Shown: positions 17,181-56,555 of the stretch, piece after piece
Layout of the letters: each line of letters starts with the position of its first letter
How positions within the stretch are numbered: the first letter of the stretch is position 1
Assembly (NCBI GenBank): GCA_043812935.1
Contig: JBDRLO010000040.1
Coordinates: 7,779 to 71,778, forward strand
DNA: 64,000 nt
DNA from: Candidatus Omnitrophota bacterium
Lineage (GTDB): Bacteria > Omnitrophota > Gorgyraeia > Tantalellales > Tantalellaceae
Direction: 5' to 3'
Position numbers and translations under genes: made by a program
Notes under the pieces: generated by a model
Seen by the model: the letters and a program-made list of their open reading frames with translations, nothing else
What the model was told of the DNA's origin: nothing
Databases searched by the model: none

Positions 17181-17378
17181 CTATTTCTTTATTTTATTTT
17201 TCATAACATCTTTAAATTCGCTAATACCAGCGGCAACCGCAATTATTCCAGCCATTATTAAAAACAATGGCAGAATACTTCTTAACATAAAAAGAACCTC
17301 ATACGACCATACAAATAAAAGTACAATCCCGGCTGTTACCATTAATCCGCCGATTAAAAGGCTGAAAATCTTACCCAT
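17181..17378 (-). CDS. small two-TM membrane protein
   Basis: 65 aa from the ATG preceded by GGAGGTGTAAA; two hydrophobic helices. Confidence 0.55.
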   Translation of the reverse strand: MGKIFSLLIGGLMVTAGIVLLFVWSYEVLFMLRSILPLFLIMAGIIAVAAGISEFKDVMKNKIKK

Positions 17379-17410
17379 TTTACACCTCCGCGTAATACTC
17401 TGGAAAATTG

Positions 17411-17440
17411 AGTATAACACAAATTTTTTAATAATGTCAA
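17411..17440 (-). promoter_or_regulatory. candidate promoter for the small membrane protein
   Basis: Minus strand TTGACA (17435-17440), 18-nt spacer, extended -10 TGTTATACT. Confidence 0.45.
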
Positions 17441-20899: not shown

Positions 20900-23800
20900 A
20901 TGAAAAGAATAAGCAAACTAATATCAATTTTACTGTCTTTTATTTTTTTAACTGGGCAGGTGCACCCTTCTTATGCTGGGCACAACCTTGCAATATGGTC
21001 CGCACATGATGCCGCGCCAATGAACAAGACAACTAACAACATCGTAAAAAGGCTAAAACCACACGCGGTCGGAAATGGTATACCTCTATTGAATTTGGTA
21101 CAAGGCACTCTTCCGGAACAAATGAAACTCGGCTCAAGTCCCCAGAAAGATATTATTAACAAAATACAAAAGGCAATAGAACTAGCCATAGCACTTCATA
21201 TAAAGAATCGTCATAAAATACCCTCAAAACACAAATTGAGAGCAGAAGAAACTTTAAAAAATTTATTTTTGTTTCAAGCACATCTCAAAGATAACTTATA
21301 CATGTATAACGCGTCAGAAACAGTAACAAGCCCTGAAGATTATTTGTTAGGCTTCATATGGCCGCACCAGATTCCCGGGTTTACAGGTTCTAAAGCATTG
21401 GGCAAAGACCCGGTCATCCTAAACAGACTGTATTCCGAATCCGTGCGCCTTTTAGCACAGGATATCTATCATGACTGTATTCCTGAACATCTCAAAATTG
21501 TAGACGGAAAACATGGTGAAGAAGTAGACCGTACAGATCACAAAATAAATTACCAGGAAATTCAAAGAGCTATCTTCAACGAAACAGATGAATCCGGAAG
21601 AACAATCAAAGATGAAGTAAAAGAATTAGGGGATTTTTACCGCAACATTATTGATGAACAGGTATTCTTACACCATGACATAGGCACTGTGCTCCAAACT
21701 ATATTAAAAAAACAGGCAAAAGAGCCTGCAGATTTACAGCCTGTGTTACAACATATTATGGATAACACCTTAAATCCAATAGTGTTAACAATAGTTTCCG
21801 GAGTAAAATATATTACAGCAGAAGCAAATACTACTTCTTTTCAAATGGAATTTACGTACCTACAAAAAAAAGCTCAAGATGACAAAGAATCAGACATTGA
21901 AAGAACATTGGCATATAGCGCTTTATATCTCAGAAATACAAATTATTCACGCACAAAAGCAATAAGTTTTTTTGAAACCATACGAAACCCCTCTGCTAAA
22001 AAAATAGCCCAGGAAACATTAAACAATCAGGGGCATACTTTATGTGAAATATTATTTAAAACACGCCGCGAGATATTTGAAAAAAAATATGATTATTTTA
22101 TTCAATTTTTGTCCGATGAAAAAAAATTAAAAATATCTACGGACATAAGTTATTCTATTTCTCAAATATGGAAAAATATTGATCAAAAGCAGCCTTTTTC
22201 AGATAAAACTCAGAACGAATTAAAAAAAATTGTGGGATTAGATAAATTTTTAAATAAAAATAATTTAACACTTGTTGCAGCAGCCTGCTACCCTGTATGT
22301 TTTGCGAGATTGTTTTATGAAGAAAATTCCGGCTACATTATTAATTTTATAAAACAGGTTAGAAAAATTCCGGACAAAGATGAAAAAATGGCAAGATTCC
22401 GTGAACATGTCTTGAATCATCCCAATTTTTTAAGCTTGTATTTTACCAGCATCTTCTTAAACCCGAAGTTTTTTTTACAAGCGAAAAAAGAACAAAAAAA
22501 GCGATTTGCTTTAGGCGTTGAGAGCCTTTATAGCCCCGCCAAGCAACTTCCAGATACACTTTTAAAAAACGGGGTGCGCATTGTCTTTGATGGTTCAAAC
22601 AGAATCGAACAATTTGTAACATTTTACCGCAGGACTAAACAATATGAAAAAGCACTGAAAATTGTGGATATAAGCATTCAAGGCTCTAAACACATTCAAC
22701 AACTTACACCTTCACAAAATCACATAGAAAGAATTGATAAATTAACAAGCGAAAAAGCCGCTATCATAAAAGAACGAAACAAATCTTCTGTTTTGATAGC
22801 ACATTTAAAAAATCTCCTGCAGGATCCTGACTCTATAGAGTATAATTCGCGAATTAACAAAATTATAGAAAAGATTAGTTCCGATACTAATAGAACAAGG
22901 CTTGACGGATACAATGAGTTATTACGGATACCTAATATTTTGCAAAGTATCAACAACAACAAAAAAATACCAGCATTCGATTTGGTTTATGAAGAAGTTT
23001 CTTCGCTTTTTGAAGTTTTATACGCGGAAAACCATGAAACAGACGTGACCGACTTAGGCCTATGCTCGCTTCTTTTGATGCACATTGCATATATTCATAC
23101 ACAAAAAAAAACTAACCAAAAAAGGATAAAAGAAATCATCGACACACTTAAAAAAAAGGCAAAAGTATATAATGATAACGGCCTTTTTACAGCTATATCA
23201 AATATTTTACTGATTAGAAAACAATATAAAGAAGCTGAAAACTTTATTAACCGGATAGAAAATACAGTCGCAAAAGCGGGAGAATTGCAACATTTAGCGG
23301 AAACATATTTAATGAACGGTAATCCCCAAGAAACTCGCCGAATTATTGATAAAATTAGCGATCATATCCTAATTTTATCTGCTCAAGAATTTCCTAACTC
23401 ATGTGATAAAAGGATTGTATCTGCCATAAAAATGTTTACATCCGAAACTTTAAAAAAATTACACCAAATGCTGCCTGAAACTAAAGAAAATCAACCGTCC
23501 CCTAAAAACCTTGAACCTGACCTAACATACAATGCCGAACTTTTTAAATACAATTTAACAGAATGGCGAAGAAAACATCCAAATGAGATGTTACTCTTAG
23601 CATTTGATACGGATATTGGACAAGATCAAAAAAATCATCTGATGCCAGTATGGAAAATTGTAGATGAAGTTAAAAAAATGAGAGATTCTGAGGGAAAGCT
23701 ATTGTTCCCCAAAGATAAATTTAAAGTCATAAGGCGGGATGGTTCAACGGGACGCTTAATGCAGGAAATAAACACGTTTTTAGATAATAAAAAGGTTCTC

Positions 23801-24151
23801 AAACAAAACATTTTTCTGATCGGCCGACAAACAAATATAAAAGCTGGGCAATTTGATAGCCTGAAAGGCGCGTCATGGATAACCGCAATAGATGACGTCT
23901 TAACAAAAGATGCAGTATATATCCCGGTATTTGAAGCCCTTATACTAACTATGATGACAGCATTTAACGCCGACTCTGACAGCATAAAAAGATTTTATGA
24001 TAAAATTTCATATGAATCTGCCACATTAGAGGAAATAGAGAAAATGAAGATCTCACAATTGATATATATCCTGCCAAAAATGATTAAAAGAAGCCCTCGA
24101 GAACTGAAAAAGATATATGAATTGGAATTTGATATCTACTCAGCAGTTTAA
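20900..24151 (+). CDS. large secreted/periplasmic protein of unknown function (1083 aa), helical-repeat rich
   Basis: Signal peptide MKRISKLISILLSFIFLTGQVHPSYA followed by an LAIWS box. TPR-like helical middle; C-terminal alpha/beta-looking module. No enzyme motif recognised. Confidence 0.7.
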   Translation: MKRISKLISILLSFIFLTGQVHPSYAGHNLAIWSAHDAAPMNKTTNNIVKRLKPHAVGNGIPLLNLVQGTLPEQMKLGSSPQKDIINKIQKAIELAIALHIKNRHKIPSKHKLRAEETLKNLFLFQAHLKDNLYMYNASETVTSPEDYLLGFIWPHQIPGFTGSKALGKDPVILNRLYSESVRLLAQDIYHDCIPEHLKIVDGKHGEEVDRTDHKINYQEIQRAIFNETDESGRTIKDEVKELGDFYRNIIDEQVFLHHDIGTVLQTILKKQAKEPADLQPVLQHIMDNTLNPIVLTIVSGVKYITAEANTTSFQMEFTYLQKKAQDDKESDIERTLAYSALYLRNTNYSRTKAISFFETIRNPSAKKIAQETLNNQGHTLCEILFKTRREIFEKKYDYFIQFLSDEKKLKISTDISYSISQIWKNIDQKQPFSDKTQNELKKIVGLDKFLNKNNLTLVAAACYPVCFARLFYEENSGYIINFIKQVRKIPDKDEKMARFREHVLNHPNFLSLYFTSIFLNPKFFLQAKKEQKKRFALGVESLYSPAKQLPDTLLKNGVRIVFDGSNRIEQFVTFYRRTKQYEKALKIVDISIQGSKHIQQLTPSQNHIERIDKLTSEKAAIIKERNKSSVLIAHLKNLLQDPDSIEYNSRINKIIEKISSDTNRTRLDGYNELLRIPNILQSINNNKKIPAFDLVYEEVSSLFEVLYAENHETDVTDLGLCSLLLMHIAYIHTQKKTNQKRIKEIIDTLKKKAKVYNDNGLFTAISNILLIRKQYKEAENFINRIENTVAKAGELQHLAETYLMNGNPQETRRIIDKISDHILILSAQEFPNSCDKRIVSAIKMFTSETLKKLHQMLPETKENQPSPKNLEPDLTYNAELFKYNLTEWRRKHPNEMLLLAFDTDIGQDQKNHLMPVWKIVDEVKKMRDSEGKLLFPKDKFKVIRRDGSTGRLMQEINTFLDNKKVLKQNIFLIGRQTNIKAGQFDSLKGASWITAIDDVLTKDAVYIPVFEALILTMMTAFNADSDSIKRFYDKISYESATLEEIEKMKISQLIYILPKMIKRSPRELKKIYELEFDIYSAV

Positions 24152-24576
24152 TTGTGATTGTTCGGGATAATTTTATAAGTTTTCTCAAAAATCTCTTTTG
24201 AACCTTTGTACTGTATGGTTTCTAGGGCTTGTTCCGGAGTATACCATTTCGCGTCGCTTATTTCCTGTGTTTGTATTTTTAACGGTTCTTCCCCTAGAAA
24301 TCTTATTAAAAAGATATGTACCGTCTTAAATATTGTTTTTCCATCATGTTCGAAATTATACTCCTGTTTTCCTACTTCACACACTACTTCAAGTTTTTTA
24401 AGGCCTGTTTCTTCTCGTATTTCCCTGATAGCAGCCTGTTCTCGAGTCTCACCTTCCTCAACATGCCCTTTAGGCCAAGTCCAATAACCAAACCTGTCTT
24501 TTATTAAAAGAATTTTTAAATCTGACTTTTCACCTTTTATTACTATCCCGCCCGCTGAAAACTGTTTCTCAGCCAT
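24148..24576 (-). CDS. NUDIX hydrolase
   Basis: Nudix box GHVEEGETREQAAIREIREETG. Its stop overlaps the stop of the convergent 1083-aa gene (TTAA). Confidence 0.88.
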   Translation of the reverse strand: MAEKQFSAGGIVIKGEKSDLKILLIKDRFGYWTWPKGHVEEGETREQAAIREIREETGLKKLEVVCEVGKQEYNFEHDGKTIFKTVHIFLIRFLGEEPLKIQTQEISDAKWYTPEQALETIQYKGSKEIFEKTYKIIPNNHN

Positions 24577-24615
24577 AACTCCCTCCATTTAATGGTTAAT
24601 GGGGACTGGTTAATG

Positions 24616-24690
24616 GGGACAGCTACCATTTATTAAACAACAAAAAGCGGGAAACTAAGTTTTCTATTTTTAATAAATGGTAGCTGTCCC
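24616..24690 (-). repeat. 19-bp perfect-stem hairpin downstream of helicase copy A
   Basis: GGGACAGCTACCATTTATT (24616-24634) pairs with AATAAATGGTAGCTGTCCC (24672-24690); 37-nt loop. The minus-strand head reads TAGGGACAG, like the REP heads. Confidence 0.8.
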
Positions 24691-24693
24691 TAT

Positions 24694-26151
24694 TTATAAT
24701 TCTATAACCGGTTCATTTTCTGAATCGAATTCAGAATCAAGCATGCGGGAACTTGCCTGCCAGACTTCATAATCTTCGTCGGCAAGTTCTTCTAAAAACC
24801 GGCTTCGCGGCGCGCTTACAGCGCCTAACTGATAATCATAACGCATAGCGGGATGCACCATATATAAATATTTTCTAGCCCGTGTAACAGCAACATAAAA
24901 AAGACGTCTTTCTTCTTCCATTTCAGCTTCGCTATTCGATGATTTTGAATGAGGAAACTGCCCGTCACAAAGCCCTATAAGAAATACTGCATCCCACTCC
25001 AACCCTTTTGCCTGGTGAATAGTTGAAAGCACAAGTTGTCCGGTCTCTTCAGAAAATGAAAAAGCGTTTGTCTCCCCGCGGAAACCTTCCTGAAGAGACG
25101 TATCGTTAACAAAATCCTTAACTGTTTCATAATCATGTGAAAAATTCACAAGTTCGCGAATATCTTCAATTCGTTCTTTAGCATTTTCATACGCCGCTAA
25201 AACATGCATTTCATATCCTGAATCCAATATTCGTTCCACAATATCAGCAATGTTTGTTTCACCGCGAATATCCGAAGTTATTGCCCGCATTATTTTCTGA
25301 AAAACCGAATATCCTGCCTGCACTTTTGAGGGGAACACTCCAGACACATCATCAGAAACAAACTGGTTTATACTTTTACCTTCCTTTTTAAAACGTTCAT
25401 AAATCTTTGCGGCATATCCCGGACCGATACCAGGCCAAAGCGTCAAGGCCCTGATCCAGGAAGTTTCATCCAAAGGATTAGCCAGAATTTTCATGTATGC
25501 TAATACGTCTTTTATATGCGCTTGTTCAAAAAAACGAAGCCCCCCGCGAACAACATAAAAAATCCCTCGTTTAACCAGTTCCATTTCAAGTTCCGCAGAT
25601 TGATAATGCGCTCGAAAAAGAACAGCAATATTTTTTATATCAACACCTTCGTCCAAAAGCTCTTTTATCCTTTGGACGACAAAAGATGCCTGGGAATACA
25701 AATCTCTAACTTCAACAAGAGCGGGCATTGAAAGAGATTCATTCACGGTTTTCAGTTCTTTTTGAAACTGGTTATCATTATTTAAAAGTGAATCATTTGC
25801 AAGAGCAACAATTTCAGGAGTAGAACGGTAATTTGTTTCCAGTTTAAATACTTTTACATTATCAAACTTTTCAGGAAATTTAAGTATATTTTCGACTCGC
25901 GCGCCCCGGAAGGAATAAATAGACTGCGCGTCATCGCCCACTGCCAGAATATTTTTGTGTTTTTCGCCGAGAATATCAATTATTTCCGCCTGCAGATAAT
26001 TCGTATCCTGATATTCGTCAACCATTATATATTTAAACTTGTCACTAAACTTCTCTCTTACTTCTTTTACATTTTCCAGCAAATATTTCCAGTTAATCAA
26101 AAGATCGTCATAATCCATATTTTCTGTTTCGCGTTTTTTCTTTTCATACAT
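24694..26151 (-). CDS. UvrD/PcrA-family helicase, N-terminally truncated paralogous copy (lacks the Walker A domain)
   Basis: 485-aa intact ORF starting at MYEKKKRETENMDYDDLL, which aligns to about residue 195 of the upstream copy. Contains VDEYQDTN, TNYRST, TIHQAKGLEW and VAVTRA motifs. Confidence 0.75.
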   Translation of the reverse strand: MYEKKKRETENMDYDDLLINWKYLLENVKEVREKFSDKFKYIMVDEYQDTNYLQAEIIDILGEKHKNILAVGDDAQSIYSFRGARVENILKFPEKFDNVKVFKLETNYRSTPEIVALANDSLLNNDNQFQKELKTVNESLSMPALVEVRDLYSQASFVVQRIKELLDEGVDIKNIAVLFRAHYQSAELEMELVKRGIFYVVRGGLRFFEQAHIKDVLAYMKILANPLDETSWIRALTLWPGIGPGYAAKIYERFKKEGKSINQFVSDDVSGVFPSKVQAGYSVFQKIMRAITSDIRGETNIADIVERILDSGYEMHVLAAYENAKERIEDIRELVNFSHDYETVKDFVNDTSLQEGFRGETNAFSFSEETGQLVLSTIHQAKGLEWDAVFLIGLCDGQFPHSKSSNSEAEMEEERRLFYVAVTRARKYLYMVHPAMRYDYQLGAVSAPRSRFLEELADEDYEVWQASSRMLDSEFDSENEPVIEL

Positions 26152-26224
26152 ATCTTTAATTGTTTTAATTTCATTGAAAAATTTAAAAAAATAAGGAAAT
26201 CGTTCATCTAATACTTTTTAATGG

Positions 26225-26299
26225 GGGACAGCTACCATTTATTAAACAACAAAAAGCGGGAAACTAAGTTTTCTATTTTCAATAAATGGTAGCTGTCCC
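26225..26299 (-). repeat. second copy of the 19-bp-stem hairpin (downstream of helicase copy B)
   Basis: Same arms as 24616-24690 and the same 37-nt loop with one difference. Confidence 0.8.
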
Positions 26300-26321
26300 T
26301 ATTTATATACGTGGAACGCAT

Positions 26322-28365
26322 TCACAACTCTATTATGGGTTCTCTTTCTGAATCAAATTCTGGATTCAACATCTGGGAACTTGCCCGCCAGACTTCATAA
26401 TCTTCACCTGAAAGTTCTTCTAAAAACCGGCTTCGAGGCGCGCTTACGGTTCCCAACTGGTAATCATACCGAGTACACGGATGCATCATATATAGGTGTT
26501 TTTTTGCTCTTGTCACGGCAACATAAAAAAGACGTCTTTCTTCTTCCATTTCAGCGTCACTATTCGCTGACTTTGAATGCGGAAACTGTCCATCGCAAAG
26601 ACCGATGAGAAATACCGCATCCCATTCCAATCCTTTTGCCTGGTGTATGGTTGAAAGTACTAGCTGACTGGACTCTTCTGAAAACGAAAAAGCGTTTGTT
26701 TCGCCACGAAACCCCTTCCTGGAGAGAAGTATCACTCACAAAATCTTTAATCGTTTCATAATCGTGCGAAAAATTTACAAGTTCCCGAATGTCATCAATT
26801 CGTTCTTTCGCGTTTTCATACGTTGCTAAAACATGTGTTTCATACCCTAAATCTAATATGCGTTCCACTATGTCCGCTATATTTGTTTCGCCGCTTATGT
26901 CCGAAGTTATTGCTCTCATTATTTTTTGAAAGATTGAATACCCCGCGCGAACTCTTGCAGGAAACGCGATAGACACATCGTCCGAAACAAACCGGTTTAT
27001 ACTTATGTCTTGTTTTTTAAAAAATTCATAAATTTTCGAGGCATATCCCGGGCCGATCCCCGGCCAAAGGGTTAATGCCCTTATCCATGAAGTTTCATCC
27101 AGCGGATTAGCCAGAATCTTCATGTACGCTAACACGTCTTTTATGTGCGCTTGCTCAAAAAAACGCAGTCCCCCGCGAACAACGTAAGAAATCCCGCGTT
27201 TAACCAATCCCATTTCCAATTCCGCAGATTGATAATGTGCCCTAAAAAGAACGGCAATGTTTTTTATATCAACTCCCTCGTCCAAAAGTTCTTTTATTCT
27301 TTGGACAACAAAAGACGCCTGAGAATATAGATCTCTAACTTCAACAAGAGCAGGCATTGAAAGAGATTCATTCACTGTTTTTAATTCTTTTTGGAACTGG
27401 TTATCATTATTTAAAAGCGAATCATTAGCAAGCGCTACAATTTCAGGGGTAGACCTATAATTAGTTTCTAATTTAAATATTTTTACGTTATCGAATTTTT
27501 CGGGAAACTGTAATATGTTTTCGACCCGTGCCCCTCGAAAAGAATAAATAGATTGCGCATCGTCACCTACGGCCAAAATATTTCGATGTTTTCCGCCAAG
27601 AATATCAACTATCTCAGCCTGCATATAATTTGTGTCCTGGTACTCATCAACCATTATATACCTAAATTTGTTACTGAATTTTTCTCTTACTTCTTCTACG
27701 TTCTCAAGTAAATACTTCCATCTAAACAAAAGATCGTCATAATCCATGTTTTCTGTTTCGCGTTTTTTCTTTTCATACATATCTTTTATTTTGTTTATTT
27801 CGTCCTTGAATTTAAAAAAATAAGGATATCGCGCATCTAATACTTTTTCCAAAGTTCTTTTTGTGTTTACCGAAAGGCTTATTATCGCTTGCATCACAGA
27901 CGCCTTCGGAAACTTTTCGCCTTTAGGCAAGGCTTTAACAACTGTCTTCGTACAACTTTTTATCAAGTCACGTGAATCCTGCTGGTCTAAAATACCAAAA
28001 TCTCTTGTAAACCCTATCTTTTCAGCGTACATTCTGAGGGTTCTATTACCTACATGATGAAACGTTCCGCTCCACAACCCTTTCGGGCTATACCTTAAGA
28101 GTCTCTCCGTCCGTTCCCGCATTTCCCGAGCGGCTTTATTCGTAAAAGTCATAAGAAGTATATTTTGAGGAGGGACTCCCCGTTCTAAAAGATAGGCCAA
28201 CCTGTAAATCAAGGTTCTAGTTTTACCGCTTCCGGCACCCGCAAGGACAAGACAAGGCCCTTCCGCCTGCGTAACAACTTCATACTGTTGTTCGTTAAGG
28301 CTCTCCGCAAAATTTATGTGCGTTTCTATGGTTTCTGAACTTTCGTTTAGGATATATCTCTTCAT
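26322..28365 (-). pseudogene. UvrD/PcrA-family ATP-dependent DNA helicase, full length but interrupted by a 1-nt frameshift
   Basis: Walker A AGAGSGKT, VDEYQDTN, and so on. ORFs 26560-28365 and 26322-26735 overlap. Relative to copy A there is one extra C in the run at 26712-26715 (minus strand CAGGAAGGGGTTT versus CAGGAAGGTTTC). Confidence 0.8.
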
Positions 28366-28373
28366 GGTGAAAT

Positions 28374-28401
28374 ATTATAACGCATTCGAGCTTTTAGGCA
28401 A
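28374..28401 (-). promoter_or_regulatory. candidate promoter giving a near-leaderless helicase mRNA
   Basis: Minus strand TTGCCT (28396-28401), 16-nt spacer, TATAAT (28374-28379), only 8 nt before the ATG at 28365. No Shine-Dalgarno sequence. Confidence 0.4.
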
Positions 28402-28686: not shown

Positions 28687-31263
28687 ATGTTAAAGAAAAT
28701 TATTTCAATACTACTTGTTTGTGCGTTTTCATTAAATACATTGGCATTTGCAAATAGCGGAGAAATGTTGGCCGCTTGGTCAATGTTTGATAATCCGCAG
28801 GATGAGCAATTGATTAGGATAGGAATTTTAAATTTAATGGAGCAGTGGAAAGAATATCCATGGGCATTCAGTACAGGAATGCCGGTAGACATTGAAACTT
28901 CCGTCAACGGCAAAAAACTGGTTGTATGTCTATCCTATCCGATAAAGATGAGCGACACAGCTGCTGGTTCTATATTCCAGTGTTTAATTGGGCAAAATAA
29001 ACGTAAATATTTTGTGTTTATTGATCCGTTGACTGAAAATCCTAATATTCATGATCGACGAATTCATGTTTTTAATTATTTGGAAAATTTAGAAAAATTC
29101 GAACCGCAAAATATAGAGAAATACGTACTGCATGAAATATGTAAAGATAAGCTTCTTCGAGAATTACATGAAAAATCTGTTGATGGGAAACGTTCTGACC
29201 TGATAAGACTTGGAGCAGAAAGTATTCCTATGCGTAACGTCATTGACTTCGTCGATGCGCTCGAGCATACATTATTAAAAATGAATCCGATAGATCACCA
29301 GTGGGGTCCTATTACCACTGAATTGATTCAGTTTTGCAACGGAAACTTGAAACATGGAAAGATTACCGGCGTATTTAAAGTTACCGGGCATGATGATCTT
29401 CCTTCCGGCGAGATTGACCATGCTTCAAATATTGCTATCCATGTGAAAGACAGAGTGGACAAAACCAAATTGGAATTAGCAATCTTACATGAGGTATTTG
29501 CTAAACTCGGAATTCCGGATTTTATCAACAATACCCCGGAACTCGCATATCTATTGAGGGACGAATATATAAATTGGAAAAATAAGGCAAAGTTTTATCC
29601 TGAAAAAATAAGAGACAAGATCGGAGTGCTTTCAAGATGGAAAATAGAACTTGAAAATAGCCGGTTTGTGGATATGGATACCCTAAGAAACAGAGATTTG
29701 GCAATGCCTGACAACCCGCGCCAACATACATCTGATAATTGGGAAGACGTGAAAGTTTCTTCCGATCCGCCTGAGTCTTTAATGGATGCCTTCAATTGCA
29801 CCAATCTTGATGATATTCTTTGGCTTTCTGCTCATGATGCGAATCACCTTCAGAATTATATGACCACAAGTACCGATAAAACTGCGGACATTTCTGCGTT
29901 ATTAAGCTATATCACAGGGAGAAATCACACTGTAATGGATAAATGTGTCTCCGCTAATGGAGATTTCTATATTTTTACCGAAAGTAGAAATAACTTTGGT
30001 AATAGTGATTTAGTCTTGTGGAGGTTACTAGATAATGGGGAAAGGATTCTTATCCCAAAGATCAATAAAGGATGGGCATTCAGGAGTACTCGTCCGAACA
30101 TAACACGTAACGCAAGTTTAGCTGTTCATAAAAATGGATCAGTTATAGTGGGAACAGTTGACGATGGATTTGTGAGGATTTATAGCAATGGGTACATGGT
30201 TAACGCGTTACGAGTAGATAATGGATCAGTCAATGTACAAATAACAAGAAATGGGGGAATTGCAATTGCTACGGGGAATGATGTTAACGGAGACGGCATA
30301 ATTTATTATGTACGATTCAATACTTCCGACACAGAAACTGTAGCAAAACATTTTCAAATCACAGATAAAGAGGTCAATATAGAAAATGTCATAACATGTG
30401 ATGACGGCAGAATCTTCATAACGGGAGTTTCAGATGATGGAATGATAAAAGTGTGGAGAATCGAAAAAGATGATACGATACATTCTATAGAGTTCAATCA
30501 CGCAGAAGCGAAAATTAAGGAAATTAAGCCGTTTATTAACGATAAAGGCATTTTCTGCATATCATTCAAAAATGTAAAAAACAATCATACATATCTATCA
30601 CGTATAGACAAAACAGGTGAAGTGACTTCATCTTTGAAAGAGGAGGTTATCGCAGAACAGATACATAGAAAGAACATTGAGATTGGACGTGAGATTGCCC
30701 CAAGTATCGGAGAAAAACAAGTACTTTGCCACATTATTGCAGATTCAATTATTCCAGGCGAACTCGAAAAACAAATGCTACAGAAGCTTGAACAGGAAAC
30801 AAGGAAAGATAAATATAGCGAAAAGATATTCCGGCTGGAAGTTAAAGATACTGAGGATTTTGTAGAGAAATTGACAAAAGAAATGAACGATCTGAGAAGC
30901 AATTATAAGGAAAAAGGGATTGAGGTTATATTCGATGTGGCTGTACCCGACACAGGTATCAATAAGAAAATAGAGAAAAAACTAAAGACAAAAGTGCTGG
31001 CGTTCCGGGTGAATAAAAAAAGTTTTGTGTATGTAGAAAGTATTCTCCTGGCTCTTCGAGCTTTACATTCGAACAGTCTGAATAGACTTTATGAAGTACA
31101 TAAATTGATAACGGGCACAGAATTAAAACCTTCAAAAGACATCACCAATATACAGGATTTTATGAGAGAAGTGGTTTTTGACCTGCCATATTGCCGATAT
31201 CTTGACTATGAGATCCGAATAAACTTAAATAACAATATCAAGGAAATGATAAAACATGCGTAG
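28687..31263 (+). CDS. large secreted protein of unknown function (858 aa) with a beta-propeller-like middle region
   Basis: Signal peptide MLKKIISILLVCAFSLNTLAFA followed by an LAAWS box. Repeats such as DGFVRIYSNG and DDGMIKVWRI; C-terminal alpha/beta-looking module. RBS AAGGGAG. Confidence 0.7.
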   Translation: MLKKIISILLVCAFSLNTLAFANSGEMLAAWSMFDNPQDEQLIRIGILNLMEQWKEYPWAFSTGMPVDIETSVNGKKLVVCLSYPIKMSDTAAGSIFQCLIGQNKRKYFVFIDPLTENPNIHDRRIHVFNYLENLEKFEPQNIEKYVLHEICKDKLLRELHEKSVDGKRSDLIRLGAESIPMRNVIDFVDALEHTLLKMNPIDHQWGPITTELIQFCNGNLKHGKITGVFKVTGHDDLPSGEIDHASNIAIHVKDRVDKTKLELAILHEVFAKLGIPDFINNTPELAYLLRDEYINWKNKAKFYPEKIRDKIGVLSRWKIELENSRFVDMDTLRNRDLAMPDNPRQHTSDNWEDVKVSSDPPESLMDAFNCTNLDDILWLSAHDANHLQNYMTTSTDKTADISALLSYITGRNHTVMDKCVSANGDFYIFTESRNNFGNSDLVLWRLLDNGERILIPKINKGWAFRSTRPNITRNASLAVHKNGSVIVGTVDDGFVRIYSNGYMVNALRVDNGSVNVQITRNGGIAIATGNDVNGDGIIYYVRFNTSDTETVAKHFQITDKEVNIENVITCDDGRIFITGVSDDGMIKVWRIEKDDTIHSIEFNHAEAKIKEIKPFINDKGIFCISFKNVKNNHTYLSRIDKTGEVTSSLKEEVIAEQIHRKNIEIGREIAPSIGEKQVLCHIIADSIIPGELEKQMLQKLEQETRKDKYSEKIFRLEVKDTEDFVEKLTKEMNDLRSNYKEKGIEVIFDVAVPDTGINKKIEKKLKTKVLAFRVNKKSFVYVESILLALRALHSNSLNRLYEVHKLITGTELKPSKDITNIQDFMREVVFDLPYCRYLDYEIRINLNNNIKEMIKHA

Positions 31264-38298: not shown

Positions 38299-38340
38299 AC
38301 AACAAAAAGCCTCAGAGGTATTTCTGAGGCTTTTTGTTGT
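38299..38340. terminator. bidirectional Rho-independent terminator between convergent genes
   Basis: 17-bp perfect stem ACAACAAAAAGCCTCAG / CTGAGGCTTTTTGTTGT with an 8-nt loop. The GC core is flanked by A5 and T5. Confidence 0.8.
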
Positions 38341-56329: not shown

Positions 56330-56479
56330 TATATGGTCGAATTAACCTCAACCCCCTTTTATGGGATGAGAGGTTATATGCTTTTTTTATAGCTTCCCTT
56401 TCTTAAGAGATACTGATTTAAAAAGCTTTGTCAAGTCTAGCGGTAATATTAATAATAAAAAAAGAGGGTGGGGACAGCT

Positions 56480-56528
56480 AAAAAACAACAGCTGCCATTT
56501 AATTGTTTTTCAATTAAATGGCAGCTGT
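56480..56528 (-). terminator. Rho-independent terminator of gdhA
   Basis: 18-bp stem ACAGCTGCCATTTAATTG / CAATTAAATGGCAGCTGT with a 5-nt loop, then UGUUUUUU on the minus strand. Confidence 0.85.
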
Positions 56529-56555
56529 ACCTGTTTTAGCACTCAATACAAAAGT

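What the first reader, a model, noticed from the sequence alone, without database searches (positions are those of the whole stretch)
24611..27848. Diverged 1.6-kb tandem duplication of the 3-prime two thirds of a UvrD/PcrA helicase gene plus its downstream hairpin
Unit A (24611-26219) and unit B (26220-27848) are collinear: a 19-bp-stem hairpin, then helicase codons from about residue 190 to the C-terminus. The junction (CATCTAATACTTTTT|AATGGGGGACAGC) places a TAA in the copy A frame. Copy A therefore lacks the Walker A domain and any visible SD, yet it keeps an intact 485-codon ORF. The copies are about 90 percent identical in protein (about 50 differences in 485 aa by my count). They are far more diverged at third codon positions. 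For example, 25808-25860 versus 27431-27483 differ at about 10 of 53 nt, yet both encode (V/I)FKLETNYRSTPEIVALA. This pattern indicates long purifying selection on both sequences, not a decaying relic. Paradoxically, the copy with the N-terminus (B) is the one carrying a frameshift. Possible explanations are an old functional duplication, recombination between diverged alleles, or two strain haplotypes laid in tandem by the assembler.
Basis: seen in the sequence. Interest (0 to 1): 0.65.

Follow-up and report, generated by a model that had tools for sequence, protein, structure and literature searches.

The report
Two diverged helicase alleles joined head-to-tail
A DNA-repair helicase gene in an uncultured Omnitrophota genome is followed by a second, headless copy of its last two thirds. 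The two copies are old alleles from different lineages brought together recently by recombination, or possibly by the assembler, so this is not an old duplication kept by selection.

Summary
Units 24610-26219 and 26218-27848 are collinear and 83% identical over 1631 nt. Each carries UvrD-like helicase codons 174 to stop plus a long hairpin. Copy A is an open but headless reading frame. Full-length copy B has a +1 G frameshift.

The interpretation needs revising. dN/dS is 0.05 (dS 1.14), but that selection did not act on tandem copies. Copy A is closer to the single-copy helicase of another Omnitrophota genome, GCA_043811395.1 (dS 0.65), than to copy B (bootstrap 994/1000). Its distance matches that of 13 flanking genes, and its own branch shows full constraint (pN/pS 0.07). 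A is therefore probably the resident gene's 3' part, and B a more distant incoming allele.

The two hairpins are about 99% identical, whereas the orthologous hairpin in that relative is only 69% identical. The joining event is therefore recent. The junction lies at the hairpin base and has 2-nt microhomology.

The best reading is an allele-displacement scar: a homologous anchor plus an illegitimate end join. This resembles the orphan 3' fragments seen at Rhs, CDI and T6SS loci. An assembler chimera of two co-occurring alleles cannot be excluded without reads. None of 89 related loci shows the arrangement. Interest is modest.

The parts
26322..28365 (-). Copy B: a full-length UvrD/Rep/PcrA-like SF1 helicase gene (680 codons once the frameshift is removed). 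This is the more distant, probably incoming, allele.
   Evidence: ORFs of 601 and 137 aa. Pfam PF00580 and PF13361. NCBIfam PcrA 516 bits, below the 911 cut-off. B versus lineage C: dS 1.14 for codons 174-end and 0.96 for codons 1-173.
26712..26715 (-). G run (CCCC on the + strand) carrying one extra base. This is the +1 frameshift that breaks copy B.
   Evidence: Alignment of A and B: GAAGG-TTTC versus GAAGGGGTTTC. Removing one G restores ...LQEGFRGETN.... No other obviously split gene in the ORF tiling of the window.
26304..26321 (-). B-specific spacer between the stop codon and the hairpin. It is a 19-nt indel relative to A. Lineage C likewise has no such spacer: its stop codon also lies directly against the hairpin flank.
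   Evidence: Alignment; lineage C sequence.
26221..26303 (.). Hairpin copy B. It is nearly identical to hairpin copy A.
   Evidence: 83/84 identity. The longest exact shared run is 56 nt.
26218..26220 (-). Junction. The hairpin base ...CCCCCATTAA is joined to AAAGTATTAGATG (codon 174), with 2-nt microhomology. It creates an in-frame TAA ahead of copy A.
   Evidence: Sequence, alignment and translation.
24694..26217 (-). Copy A: helicase codons 174 to stop, with no Walker A, no promoter and no SD. It is probably the resident gene's orphaned 3' part.
   Evidence: Open 507-codon frame. Pfam PF00580 covers only positions 168-270 of 271, while PF13361 is complete. A versus C: dS 0.65, matching the flank genes. 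A-specific branch pN/pS 0.069. No above-chance promoter match.
24612..24694 (.). Hairpin copy A, lying between the helicase stop codon and the NUDIX gene. The structure is conserved with compensatory changes in lineage C.
   Evidence: Fold -38.2 kcal/mol, z = -9.2. Compensatory pairs. A versus C hairpin identity only 60/87. No Rfam family. No U-tract terminator.
24591..24618 (.). 14-nt tandem repeat of the hairpin-base motif ((A/C)TGGTTAATGGGG on the + strand). The 1.6-kb junction falls in this same motif.
   Evidence: Family D16. Analogous stem-base duplications occur in lineage C and in other hairpins of this family.
24148..24588 (-). NUDIX hydrolase gene, the conserved downstream partner of the helicase.
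   Evidence: Pfam PF00293. Helicase-NUDIX synteny in L001, L004, L091 and L095.
28374..28401 (-). Promoter-like site (TTGCCT-16-TATAAT) in front of copy B. The same region is conserved in lineage C.
   Evidence: alignment.
28687..31263 (+). 858-aa ORF of unknown function, inserted between the phosphorylase and helicase genes relative to three related lineages. It may belong to the same incoming block. The left boundary of that block is unresolved.

Best explanation
The structure is a recent recombination scar that places two anciently diverged alleles of one housekeeping helicase gene head to tail.

The resident gene is the A type, orthologous to the single-copy gene of GCA_043811395.1. It met DNA carrying a more distant B-type allele that already had, or acquired, the resident-type hairpin.

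On the upstream side the incoming DNA paired by homology. On the downstream side its end, just past the long hairpin, was joined illegitimately to codon 174 of the resident gene through a 2-nt microhomology. This is a homology-facilitated illegitimate recombination type of event. A small circle closed at the same junction and integrated by a single crossover in the hairpin would give the same product.

The result has four consequences:
- The incoming full-length allele B, with its hairpin, now sits where the gene's 5' third used to be.
- The resident's codons 174 to stop, plus the resident hairpin, are pushed downstream as a promoterless, headless orphan.
- Copy A looks intact only because it is too young to have decayed. 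It is most probably non-functional.
- Copy B carries a +1 slip in a G run. If that base is real, the locus currently encodes no intact helicase.

Shown here: the anatomy, the tree ((A,C),B), the constraint on every branch, and the hairpin discordance. Inferred: the order of events, which copy is resident (moderately supported), the in vivo origin of the junction, and the lack of function of A.
For: 1. A and B are not each other's closest relatives. A-C dS is 0.65 (87.0% nt). A-B is 1.14 and B-C is 1.14. Informative sites: A=C 143, A=B 87, B=C 72. Four-point bootstrap for (A,C) is 994/1000.
2. Lineage C has one helicase copy followed by an orthologous hairpin and NUDIX, in three independent assemblies.
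3. Thirteen flank genes on both sides differ from lineage C by pS 0.40-0.55. A-C is 0.436, inside that range. B-C is 0.586, above all thirteen.
4. Changes specific to A are 40.5 synonymous and 10.5 nonsynonymous (pN/pS 0.069). Intact full-length C gives 0.077. Polarised against outgroups, A has fewer derived amino-acid changes than B: 13 versus 20. The truncation is therefore recent.
5. Hairpins A and B differ by 1 substitution and 1 indel. Hairpin A versus the orthologous hairpin in C is only 69% identical, although their coding parts are closer than A and B. The hairpins therefore coalesce far more recently than the coding parts.
6. The junction is sharp and has 2-nt microhomology. It sits 5-6 nt beyond the stem, in the same motif that is locally duplicated (14 nt x2) beside hairpin A.
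7. The mechanism and the resulting orphan 3' fragments are documented elsewhere. HFIR and orphaned 3' regions are discussed for T6SS and Rhs loci (PMC5361080). Partial duplications by single crossover of truncated circles are reported in PMC3240628.
Against: - No reads are available, so the junction is not independently verified.
- Neither allele, nor the junction, was found in any other assembly.
- The scenario needs two events: introgression of allele B with a crossover at the hairpin, and then the illegitimate join.
- The 2-nt microhomology is shorter than is typical for reported HFIR junctions (from general knowledge, not tested here) and is compatible with chance.
- The assignment of A as resident rests on flank distances that vary from gene to gene. 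An independent calibration pair (L001 versus L095) shows that synonymous divergence around this locus is itself mosaic.
- The left boundary of the incoming block is unresolved.
Confidence: 0.55

Rival explanations
1. Assembly chimera. The sample holds two co-occurring strains with the same flanks and hairpin but different helicase alleles: one resident A-type, and one with the introgressed B-type. The assembler, scaffolder or gap closer laid a contig ending just after the hairpin (...N-X_B-hairpin) end to end with a contig that starts inside the other allele (X_A-hairpin-NUDIX...).
For: - The structure is exactly what unrecognised overlap of two haplotigs gives: the duplicated unit equals the overlap.
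- Near-identical hairpins and flanks, with a deeply diverged block between them, fit two alleles in one population.
- In the lineage C metagenome, the same gene is also an assembly-graph fork. Two contigs overlap there by exactly 141 nt.
- A Logan contig of lineage C breaks inside the hairpin.
- The arrangement is unique among 89 related loci and was seen in one MAG only.
Against: - The window contains no Ns.
- The sequences on the two sides of the junction share only 2 nt, so a de Bruijn graph path across it needs real reads containing it.
- Hairpin B is complete, with 5-6 nt beyond the stem. Graph breaks at palindromes normally fall inside them.
- The breakpoint lies in a motif that is independently duplicated in vivo beside hairpin A.
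- The rest of the window is cleanly assembled, with no other broken genes.
Confidence: 0.27
2. Two-step in situ origin. A recent tandem duplication of [codons 174-stop + hairpin] arose in the resident genome by hairpin-provoked slippage. The first copy and the 5' third were then replaced by ordinary homologous recombination with a diverged allele, with the right-hand crossover at the hairpin.
For: - It explains the near-identical hairpins and the junction at the hairpin base.
- It explains the foreign ancestry of B, including its N-terminal part.
Against: - It needs two rare events at one site within a short time.
- Identical 1.6-kb tandem repeats are unstable.
- It is otherwise indistinguishable from the best explanation on the present data.
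Confidence: 0.1
3. Old in situ tandem duplication, with both copies maintained by purifying selection because the headless copy A has a function of its own.
For: dN/dS between the copies is 0.05, and A has an intact 507-codon frame.
Against: - A is sister to the full-length single-copy gene of another genome, not to B (994/1000).
- The hairpins are about 99% identical, against dS 1.14 for the coding parts.
- A lacks Walker A, a start context and a promoter.
- None of 89 related loci has a second segment.
Confidence: 0.03
4. Functional cassette. Copy A is a silent donor bounded by identical hairpins. It can recombine with the frameshifted expressed copy to restore or switch the helicase C-terminal two thirds, in the manner of pilE/pilS or Rhs orphans.
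For: - The architecture resembles expressed-gene-plus-orphan arrays.
- The frameshift in B lies inside the region covered by A, so a B/A crossover upstream of 26715 would give an intact chimeric gene.
Against: - There is a single orphan only.
- The arrangement does not recur in relatives.
- There is no diversifying selection (dN/dS 0.05; the highest windowed pN is 0.117 against pS 0.545).
- The gene is a housekeeping type.
- The longest exact coding match is 38 nt, which is poor substrate for recombination.
Confidence: 0.05

Closest known systems
Orphan 3' gene fragments left by allele displacement at Rhs, CDI and T6SS effector loci, proposed to arise by homology-facilitated illegitimate recombination (PMC5361080; de Vries & Wackernagel 2002 and Prudhomme et al. 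2002, as cited there)
   Same: A full-length gene is followed directly by a 5'-truncated, diverged copy of its 3' part. The incoming allele is of foreign ancestry. There is a conserved 5' anchor and a non-homologous downstream join.
   Different: The gene here is a housekeeping SF1 helicase, not a polymorphic toxin. There is no immunity gene, only one orphan, no diversifying selection and no recurrence in relatives. The downstream join sits at a long hairpin.
Partial gene duplication by single-crossover (Campbell-type) integration of a circular molecule carrying a truncated homologous segment (PMC3240628)
   Same: The product is a head-to-tail partial duplication of the target gene, with one complete and one 5'-truncated copy.
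   Different: No vector or foreign DNA lies between the copies. The circle would have to be a self-ligated 1.6-kb chromosomal fragment of a second allele.
False (haplotypic) duplications in assemblies, where diverged haplotigs are placed in tandem because their overlap is not recognised
   Same: The duplicated unit equals the overlap of two alleles. The copies are diverged at allele level and the flanks are shared.
   Different: This artefact is known mainly from diploid long-read or scaffolded assemblies (general knowledge). Here there are no Ns, and the junction has no sequence overlap that a graph assembler could follow.
Hairpin/palindrome-stimulated illegitimate recombination and tandem duplication
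   Same: The breakpoint lies at the base of a stem of about 30 bp. Short tandem duplications of the stem-base motif lie next to it.
   Different: The two copies are not recent duplicates of each other, so slippage alone cannot explain the structure.

Membership tests
UvrD/Rep/PcrA (SF1A) helicase | UvrD N-terminal ATPase domain with Walker A, plus the UvrD_C domain | tested here: met
   Copy B: PF00580 positions 1-270 at 1e-77, PF13361, and the GAGSGKT motif. Copy A has only PF00580 positions 168-270 plus a complete PF13361 and no Walker A, so A alone does not meet the feature.
PcrA / UvrD / Rep equivalogs (NCBIfam) | Score above the curated equivalog cut-off | tested here: not met
   Frameshift-corrected B scores PcrA 516 bits (cut-off 911), UvrD 434 (cut-off 1144) and Rep 433 (cut-off 951). 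It is UvrD-like, but no specific orthologue is assigned.
In situ tandem segmental duplication followed by divergence | The two copies are each other's closest relatives, and non-coding parts are at least as diverged as synonymous sites | tested here: not met
   The tree is ((A,C),B) with 994/1000 support. The hairpins are about 99% identical, against pS 0.586.
In situ tandem segmental duplication followed by divergence | Head-to-tail collinear units with a single novel junction | tested here: met
Allele displacement by homology-facilitated illegitimate recombination (orphan 3' fragment) | The incoming copy has a different ancestry from the displaced resident remnant | tested here: met
   A-C dS 0.65, equal to the flank background. 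B-C dS 1.14, above all 13 flank genes.
Allele displacement by homology-facilitated illegitimate recombination (orphan 3' fragment) | One junction is non-homologous with short microhomology, and the other end is homologous | tested here: inconclusive
   The downstream junction is sharp with 2-nt microhomology. The upstream homologous crossover could not be located, because no B-lineage reference exists. The N-terminal dS is 0.61 in codons 1-40 and about 1.0-1.3 after that, which is not significant.
Allele displacement by homology-facilitated illegitimate recombination (orphan 3' fragment) | The event occurred in a cell: DNA uptake and recombination | not testable with these tools
   This needs reads or PCR on the source sample.
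Assembly haplotig duplication | No reads span the junction, and depth per unit is about half that of the flanks | not testable with these tools
   No read data are available. Indirect evidence only: no Ns in the window, and only 2 nt shared across the junction.
Silent-cassette / orphan-array variation systems (pilE/pilS, Rhs, CDI) | Recurrent arrays in related genomes, and diversifying selection on the variable part | tested here: not met
   None of 89 related loci has a second segment. dN/dS is 0.05 overall, and every window has pN far below pS.
Programmed ribosomal frameshift | The frameshift is conserved in homologues | tested here: not met
   Copy A and lineages C, P0002 and P0003 are all in frame at this site. 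The extra base lies in a G run.
Intrinsic terminator / known RNA family (for the hairpin) | GC-rich stem followed by a U tract, or a match to an Rfam model at gathering score | tested here: not met
   No terminator call at the hairpin. Only sub-threshold generic hairpin matches in Rfam.

The most novel reading that the evidence does not exclude
The helicase locus carries a long-lived allelic dimorphism, for example one driven by conflict with plasmids or phages that hijack or inhibit PcrA/Rep-type helicases. The hairpin-bounded headless copy is then a usable reserve. Recombination between B and A upstream of the frameshift would restore an intact chimeric helicase, so the tandem pair would act as a crude allele switch or repair cassette for a housekeeping gene.
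Probability: 0.05. Interest if true: 0.7.

Novelty: new member of a known kind. Interest (0 to 1): 0.33.

Why it matters
If the junction is real, this is a natural and datable example of allele displacement. An incoming diverged allele pushes the resident gene's 3' part downstream. It occurs at a housekeeping gene of an uncultured phylum, and so outside the toxin and immunity loci where such orphans are usually described. A structured hairpin marks both recombination boundaries.

The case also carries a methodological warning. A low dN/dS between tandem copies does not show that both are under selection in place. An outgroup genome can show that the divergence predates the juxtaposition.

If the junction is an artefact, it flags a type of strain-chimera misassembly in a deposited MAG that produced three separate helicase CDS annotations.

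Tried and rejected
- **Exact-protein look-ups.** Look-ups of copy A and of P0001 found no contig on record.
- **Metagenome scan.** A scan with copy A found only relatives at 66% identity or less. No second A-like or B-like sequence and no second copy of the junction turned up.
- **Genome-collection scan.** The scan with the hairpin 19-mer did not retrieve the source genome. It revealed instead that the motif occurs in other phyla.
- **Hairpin identity.** There was no match in viral contigs, no paper containing the string, and no Rfam family.
- **Integron attC reading of the hairpin.** Considered by eye and dropped, because the R'/R'' core sites are not met at the boundaries.
- **Programmed frameshift.** Rejected, because the site is in frame in all homologues.
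- **Calibrating the helicase's relative synonymous rate.** An independent lineage pair (L001 versus L095) was tried to decide which copy is resident. That pair is itself mosaic: upstream genes dS 1.2-1.6, helicase 0.85, downstream genes 0.5-0.6. The calibration is therefore unreliable.
- **Composition.** GC and GC3 do not separate A from B.
- **Gene conversion tracts between A and B.** None was clear. A=B sites number 87 against 72 for B=C. A-C identity is at least A-B identity in almost every window.
- **The 858-aa neighbour.** It has no Pfam hit and no homologue in the fetched loci.
Full report
**What is there**

The region lies on the minus strand of a contig from a Candidatus Omnitrophota MAG. 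NCBI proteins MFH1395079.1 and MFH1395081.1 come from it, and the contig is 80,639 nt long.

Read 5' to 3' on the minus strand, the order is as follows:
- A promoter-like site (28401-28374).
- Helicase copy B (28365-26322).
- A 19-nt spacer.
- Hairpin B (26303-26221).
- A junction.
- Helicase copy A, codons 174 to stop (26217-24694).
- Hairpin A (24694-24612).
- A 14-nt tandem repeat of the stem-base motif.
- A NUDIX gene (24588-24148).

Self-BLASTN gives 24610-26219 versus 26218-27848 at 83% identity over 1631 nt. It is the only repeat of this kind in the 64-kb window.

Copy B has Walker A and both UvrD domains. One extra G at 26712-26715 breaks it. Copy A is open from an in-frame TAA that spans the junction. 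It lacks the first 167 positions of the N-terminal domain model.

The helicase is UvrD/Rep/PcrA-like but falls below every NCBIfam equivalog cut-off.

**Checking the numbers**

- A versus B: 89% amino-acid identity and 83.1% nucleotide identity.
- Differences by codon position are 44/28/185.
- pS 0.586, dS 1.14, dN 0.061, dN/dS 0.053. pN is far below pS in every 150-nt window.

The hairpin element differs between the copies by one substitution and one base in a G run. That is wildly discordant with a synonymous divergence above 1.

**A closer relative changes the reading**

The NUDIX neighbour led to a closer relative, here called lineage C. It appears in three assemblies: GCA_043811395.1, GCA_018814505.1 and a Logan assembly.

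Lineage C has the gene order phosphorylase, helicase, hairpin, NUDIX, with one helicase copy.

Over 496 shared codons the distances are:

| Pair | dS | nt identity |
|---|---|---|
| A-C | 0.65 | 87.0% |
| A-B | 1.14 | 83.3% |
| B-C | 1.14 | 82.3% |

Informative nucleotide sites are A=C 143, A=B 87 and B=C 72. A four-point bootstrap with two outgroups supports (A,C) in 994 of 1000 replicates.

The headless copy A is therefore the orthologue of a normal full-length gene in another genome. B branched off earlier.

Changes specific to the A branch are 40.5 synonymous and 10.5 nonsynonymous (pN/pS 0.069). The intact gene of lineage C gives 0.077. Polarised by outgroups, A has fewer derived amino-acid changes than B, 13 versus 20. 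A has thus spent essentially its whole history as part of a working gene.

**Which copy is resident**

Thirteen flank genes, five downstream and eight upstream, differ from lineage C by pS 0.40-0.55 (dS 0.58-0.99). One fast-evolving 1083-aa ORF was left out.

A-C (pS 0.436) lies inside that range. B-C (0.586) lies above every flank gene. The N-terminal third of B gives 0.54.

Both flanks therefore look like A's lineage, and B, including its 5' third, looks like an incoming allele.

This step is only moderately secure. Gene-to-gene scatter is large. An attempted calibration with another lineage pair showed that divergence around this locus is mosaic there too.

**The hairpin**

The hairpin is a real conserved structure. 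It folds at -38 kcal/mol with z = -9.

Lineage C has the orthologous hairpin with compensatory stem changes (GACAGCTACC to GACGTCACCC, both arms) and a different loop. Overall it is only 60/87 identical to hairpin A.

Because A-C coding sequence is closer than A-B, two hairpins that had diverged together with A and B should be at most about that similar. They are about 99% identical instead. Both are therefore of one recent, resident type.

The block of B-type divergence ends exactly at the left edge of the hairpin. The head-to-tail junction lies 5-6 nt past its right edge. Both recombination boundaries are thus at the hairpin.

The junction shares 2 nt between the partners (CATTAA|cc and gg|AAAAAGT). 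It falls in a motif that is also tandemly duplicated (14 nt x2) beside hairpin A.

**Mechanism**

The simplest biological account has two steps.

1. A diverged allele entered the population by ordinary homologous recombination, with one crossover at the conserved hairpin.
2. DNA carrying it recombined with a resident-type chromosome. There was a homologous anchor upstream and an illegitimate join of its hairpin-proximal end to codon 174 of the resident gene.

A self-closed 1.6-kb circle integrated by a crossover in the hairpin would give the same result.

This is the logic of homology-facilitated illegitimate recombination, and of the orphaned 3' regions described at T6SS and Rhs loci. Partial duplications by single crossover are documented experimentally.

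The orphan has no start context or promoter above chance and is probably inert.

The frameshift in B is the only broken gene evident in the window. The homologues are in frame at that site. It is therefore a simple slip or a base error, not a programmed event.

**The artefact alternative**

The same population picture could also yield this contig as an assembler chimera. That picture is two alleles between shared flanks.

In favour of an artefact:
- The structure equals an unrecognised overlap of two haplotigs.
- It is unique to one MAG and absent from 89 related loci.
- The same gene is a graph fork in another metagenome, where two contigs overlap by 141 nt.

Against an artefact:
- The window has no Ns.
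- Only 2 nt are shared across the junction, so a graph assembler would need reads that contain it.
- A complete hairpin precedes the break.
- The breakpoint motif is independently duplicated nearby.

I put the artefact at roughly one in four. Only reads can settle it.

**Rejected readings**

- An old functional duplication is contradicted by the tree, by the hairpins and by its absence in relatives.
- A cassette or allele-switch system is not supported. There is one orphan, no recurrence, and dN/dS is 0.05. It is kept only as the low-probability novel case.

**Verdict**

This is a new instance of a known kind of event. It is of modest interest, and it has a useful methodological lesson.

Noticed in passing
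window 24616-24634, 24672-24690, 26225-26243, 26281-26299; L005-L010: The 19-nt hairpin arm GGGACAGCTACCATTTATT occurs exactly in MAGs labelled Planctomycetia, Nitrospiraceae (two contigs), Syntrophaceae and two other Omnitrophota. In each case it lies in a long AT-rich hairpin with an unrelated loop. Short tandem copies of the stem-base motif (AATAGGGACAGC) often lie next to it. There is no Rfam family, no viral hit and no literature hit. It may be a cross-phylum hairpin family, such as a REP/MITE-like or protein-bound element.
   Followed up: partly
window 56470-56537: A variant hairpin of the same family: GGGGACAGCT..ACAGCTGCCATTTAATTG / CAATTAAATGGCAGCTGT. It lies in an intergenic region.
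   Followed up: no
window 28687-31263 (+): An 858-aa ORF with a signal-peptide-like N-terminus and no Pfam hit. It is inserted between the phosphorylase and helicase genes relative to lineage C and the P0002 and P0003 lineages, where those genes are adjacent. It has no homologue in 97 fetched loci. Its N-terminus weakly resembles that of the fast-evolving 1083-aa ORF at 20900-24151, which lies on the other side of the helicase-NUDIX pair.
   Followed up: partly
L001 vs L095 (P0003 and P0002 lineages): Synonymous divergence is mosaic across the same syntenic locus. Upstream genes have dS 1.16-1.60, the helicase 0.85, and NUDIX and HAD 0.52-0.62. This suggests recombination around the helicase in other Omnitrophota lineages too.
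   Followed up: partly
L094 end / L091 start (GCA_043811395.1): The single-copy helicase of lineage C is split over two contigs that overlap by exactly 141 nt within codons 6-52. That marks an assembly-graph fork inside the same gene in an independent metagenome. It hints at allelic or structural variation there as well.
   Followed up: no
window 38299-38340: A perfect bidirectional terminator-like palindrome (AAACAACAAAAAGCCTCAGA...TCTGAGGCTTTTTGTTGT). Its 5' part, AAACAACAAAAAGC, also occurs in the loop of the helicase hairpin.
   Followed up: no
window 17181-17420 (-); L091 9391-9588: A small membrane ORF next to MgtE. Its orthologue in lineage C carries a Pfam MamI (magnetosome protein) hit.
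   Followed up: no
protein cluster of P0003: Five unrelated 55-aa membrane peptides are listed as members of the 90%-identity helicase cluster. This is apparently a database indexing oddity, not biology.
   Followed up: yes
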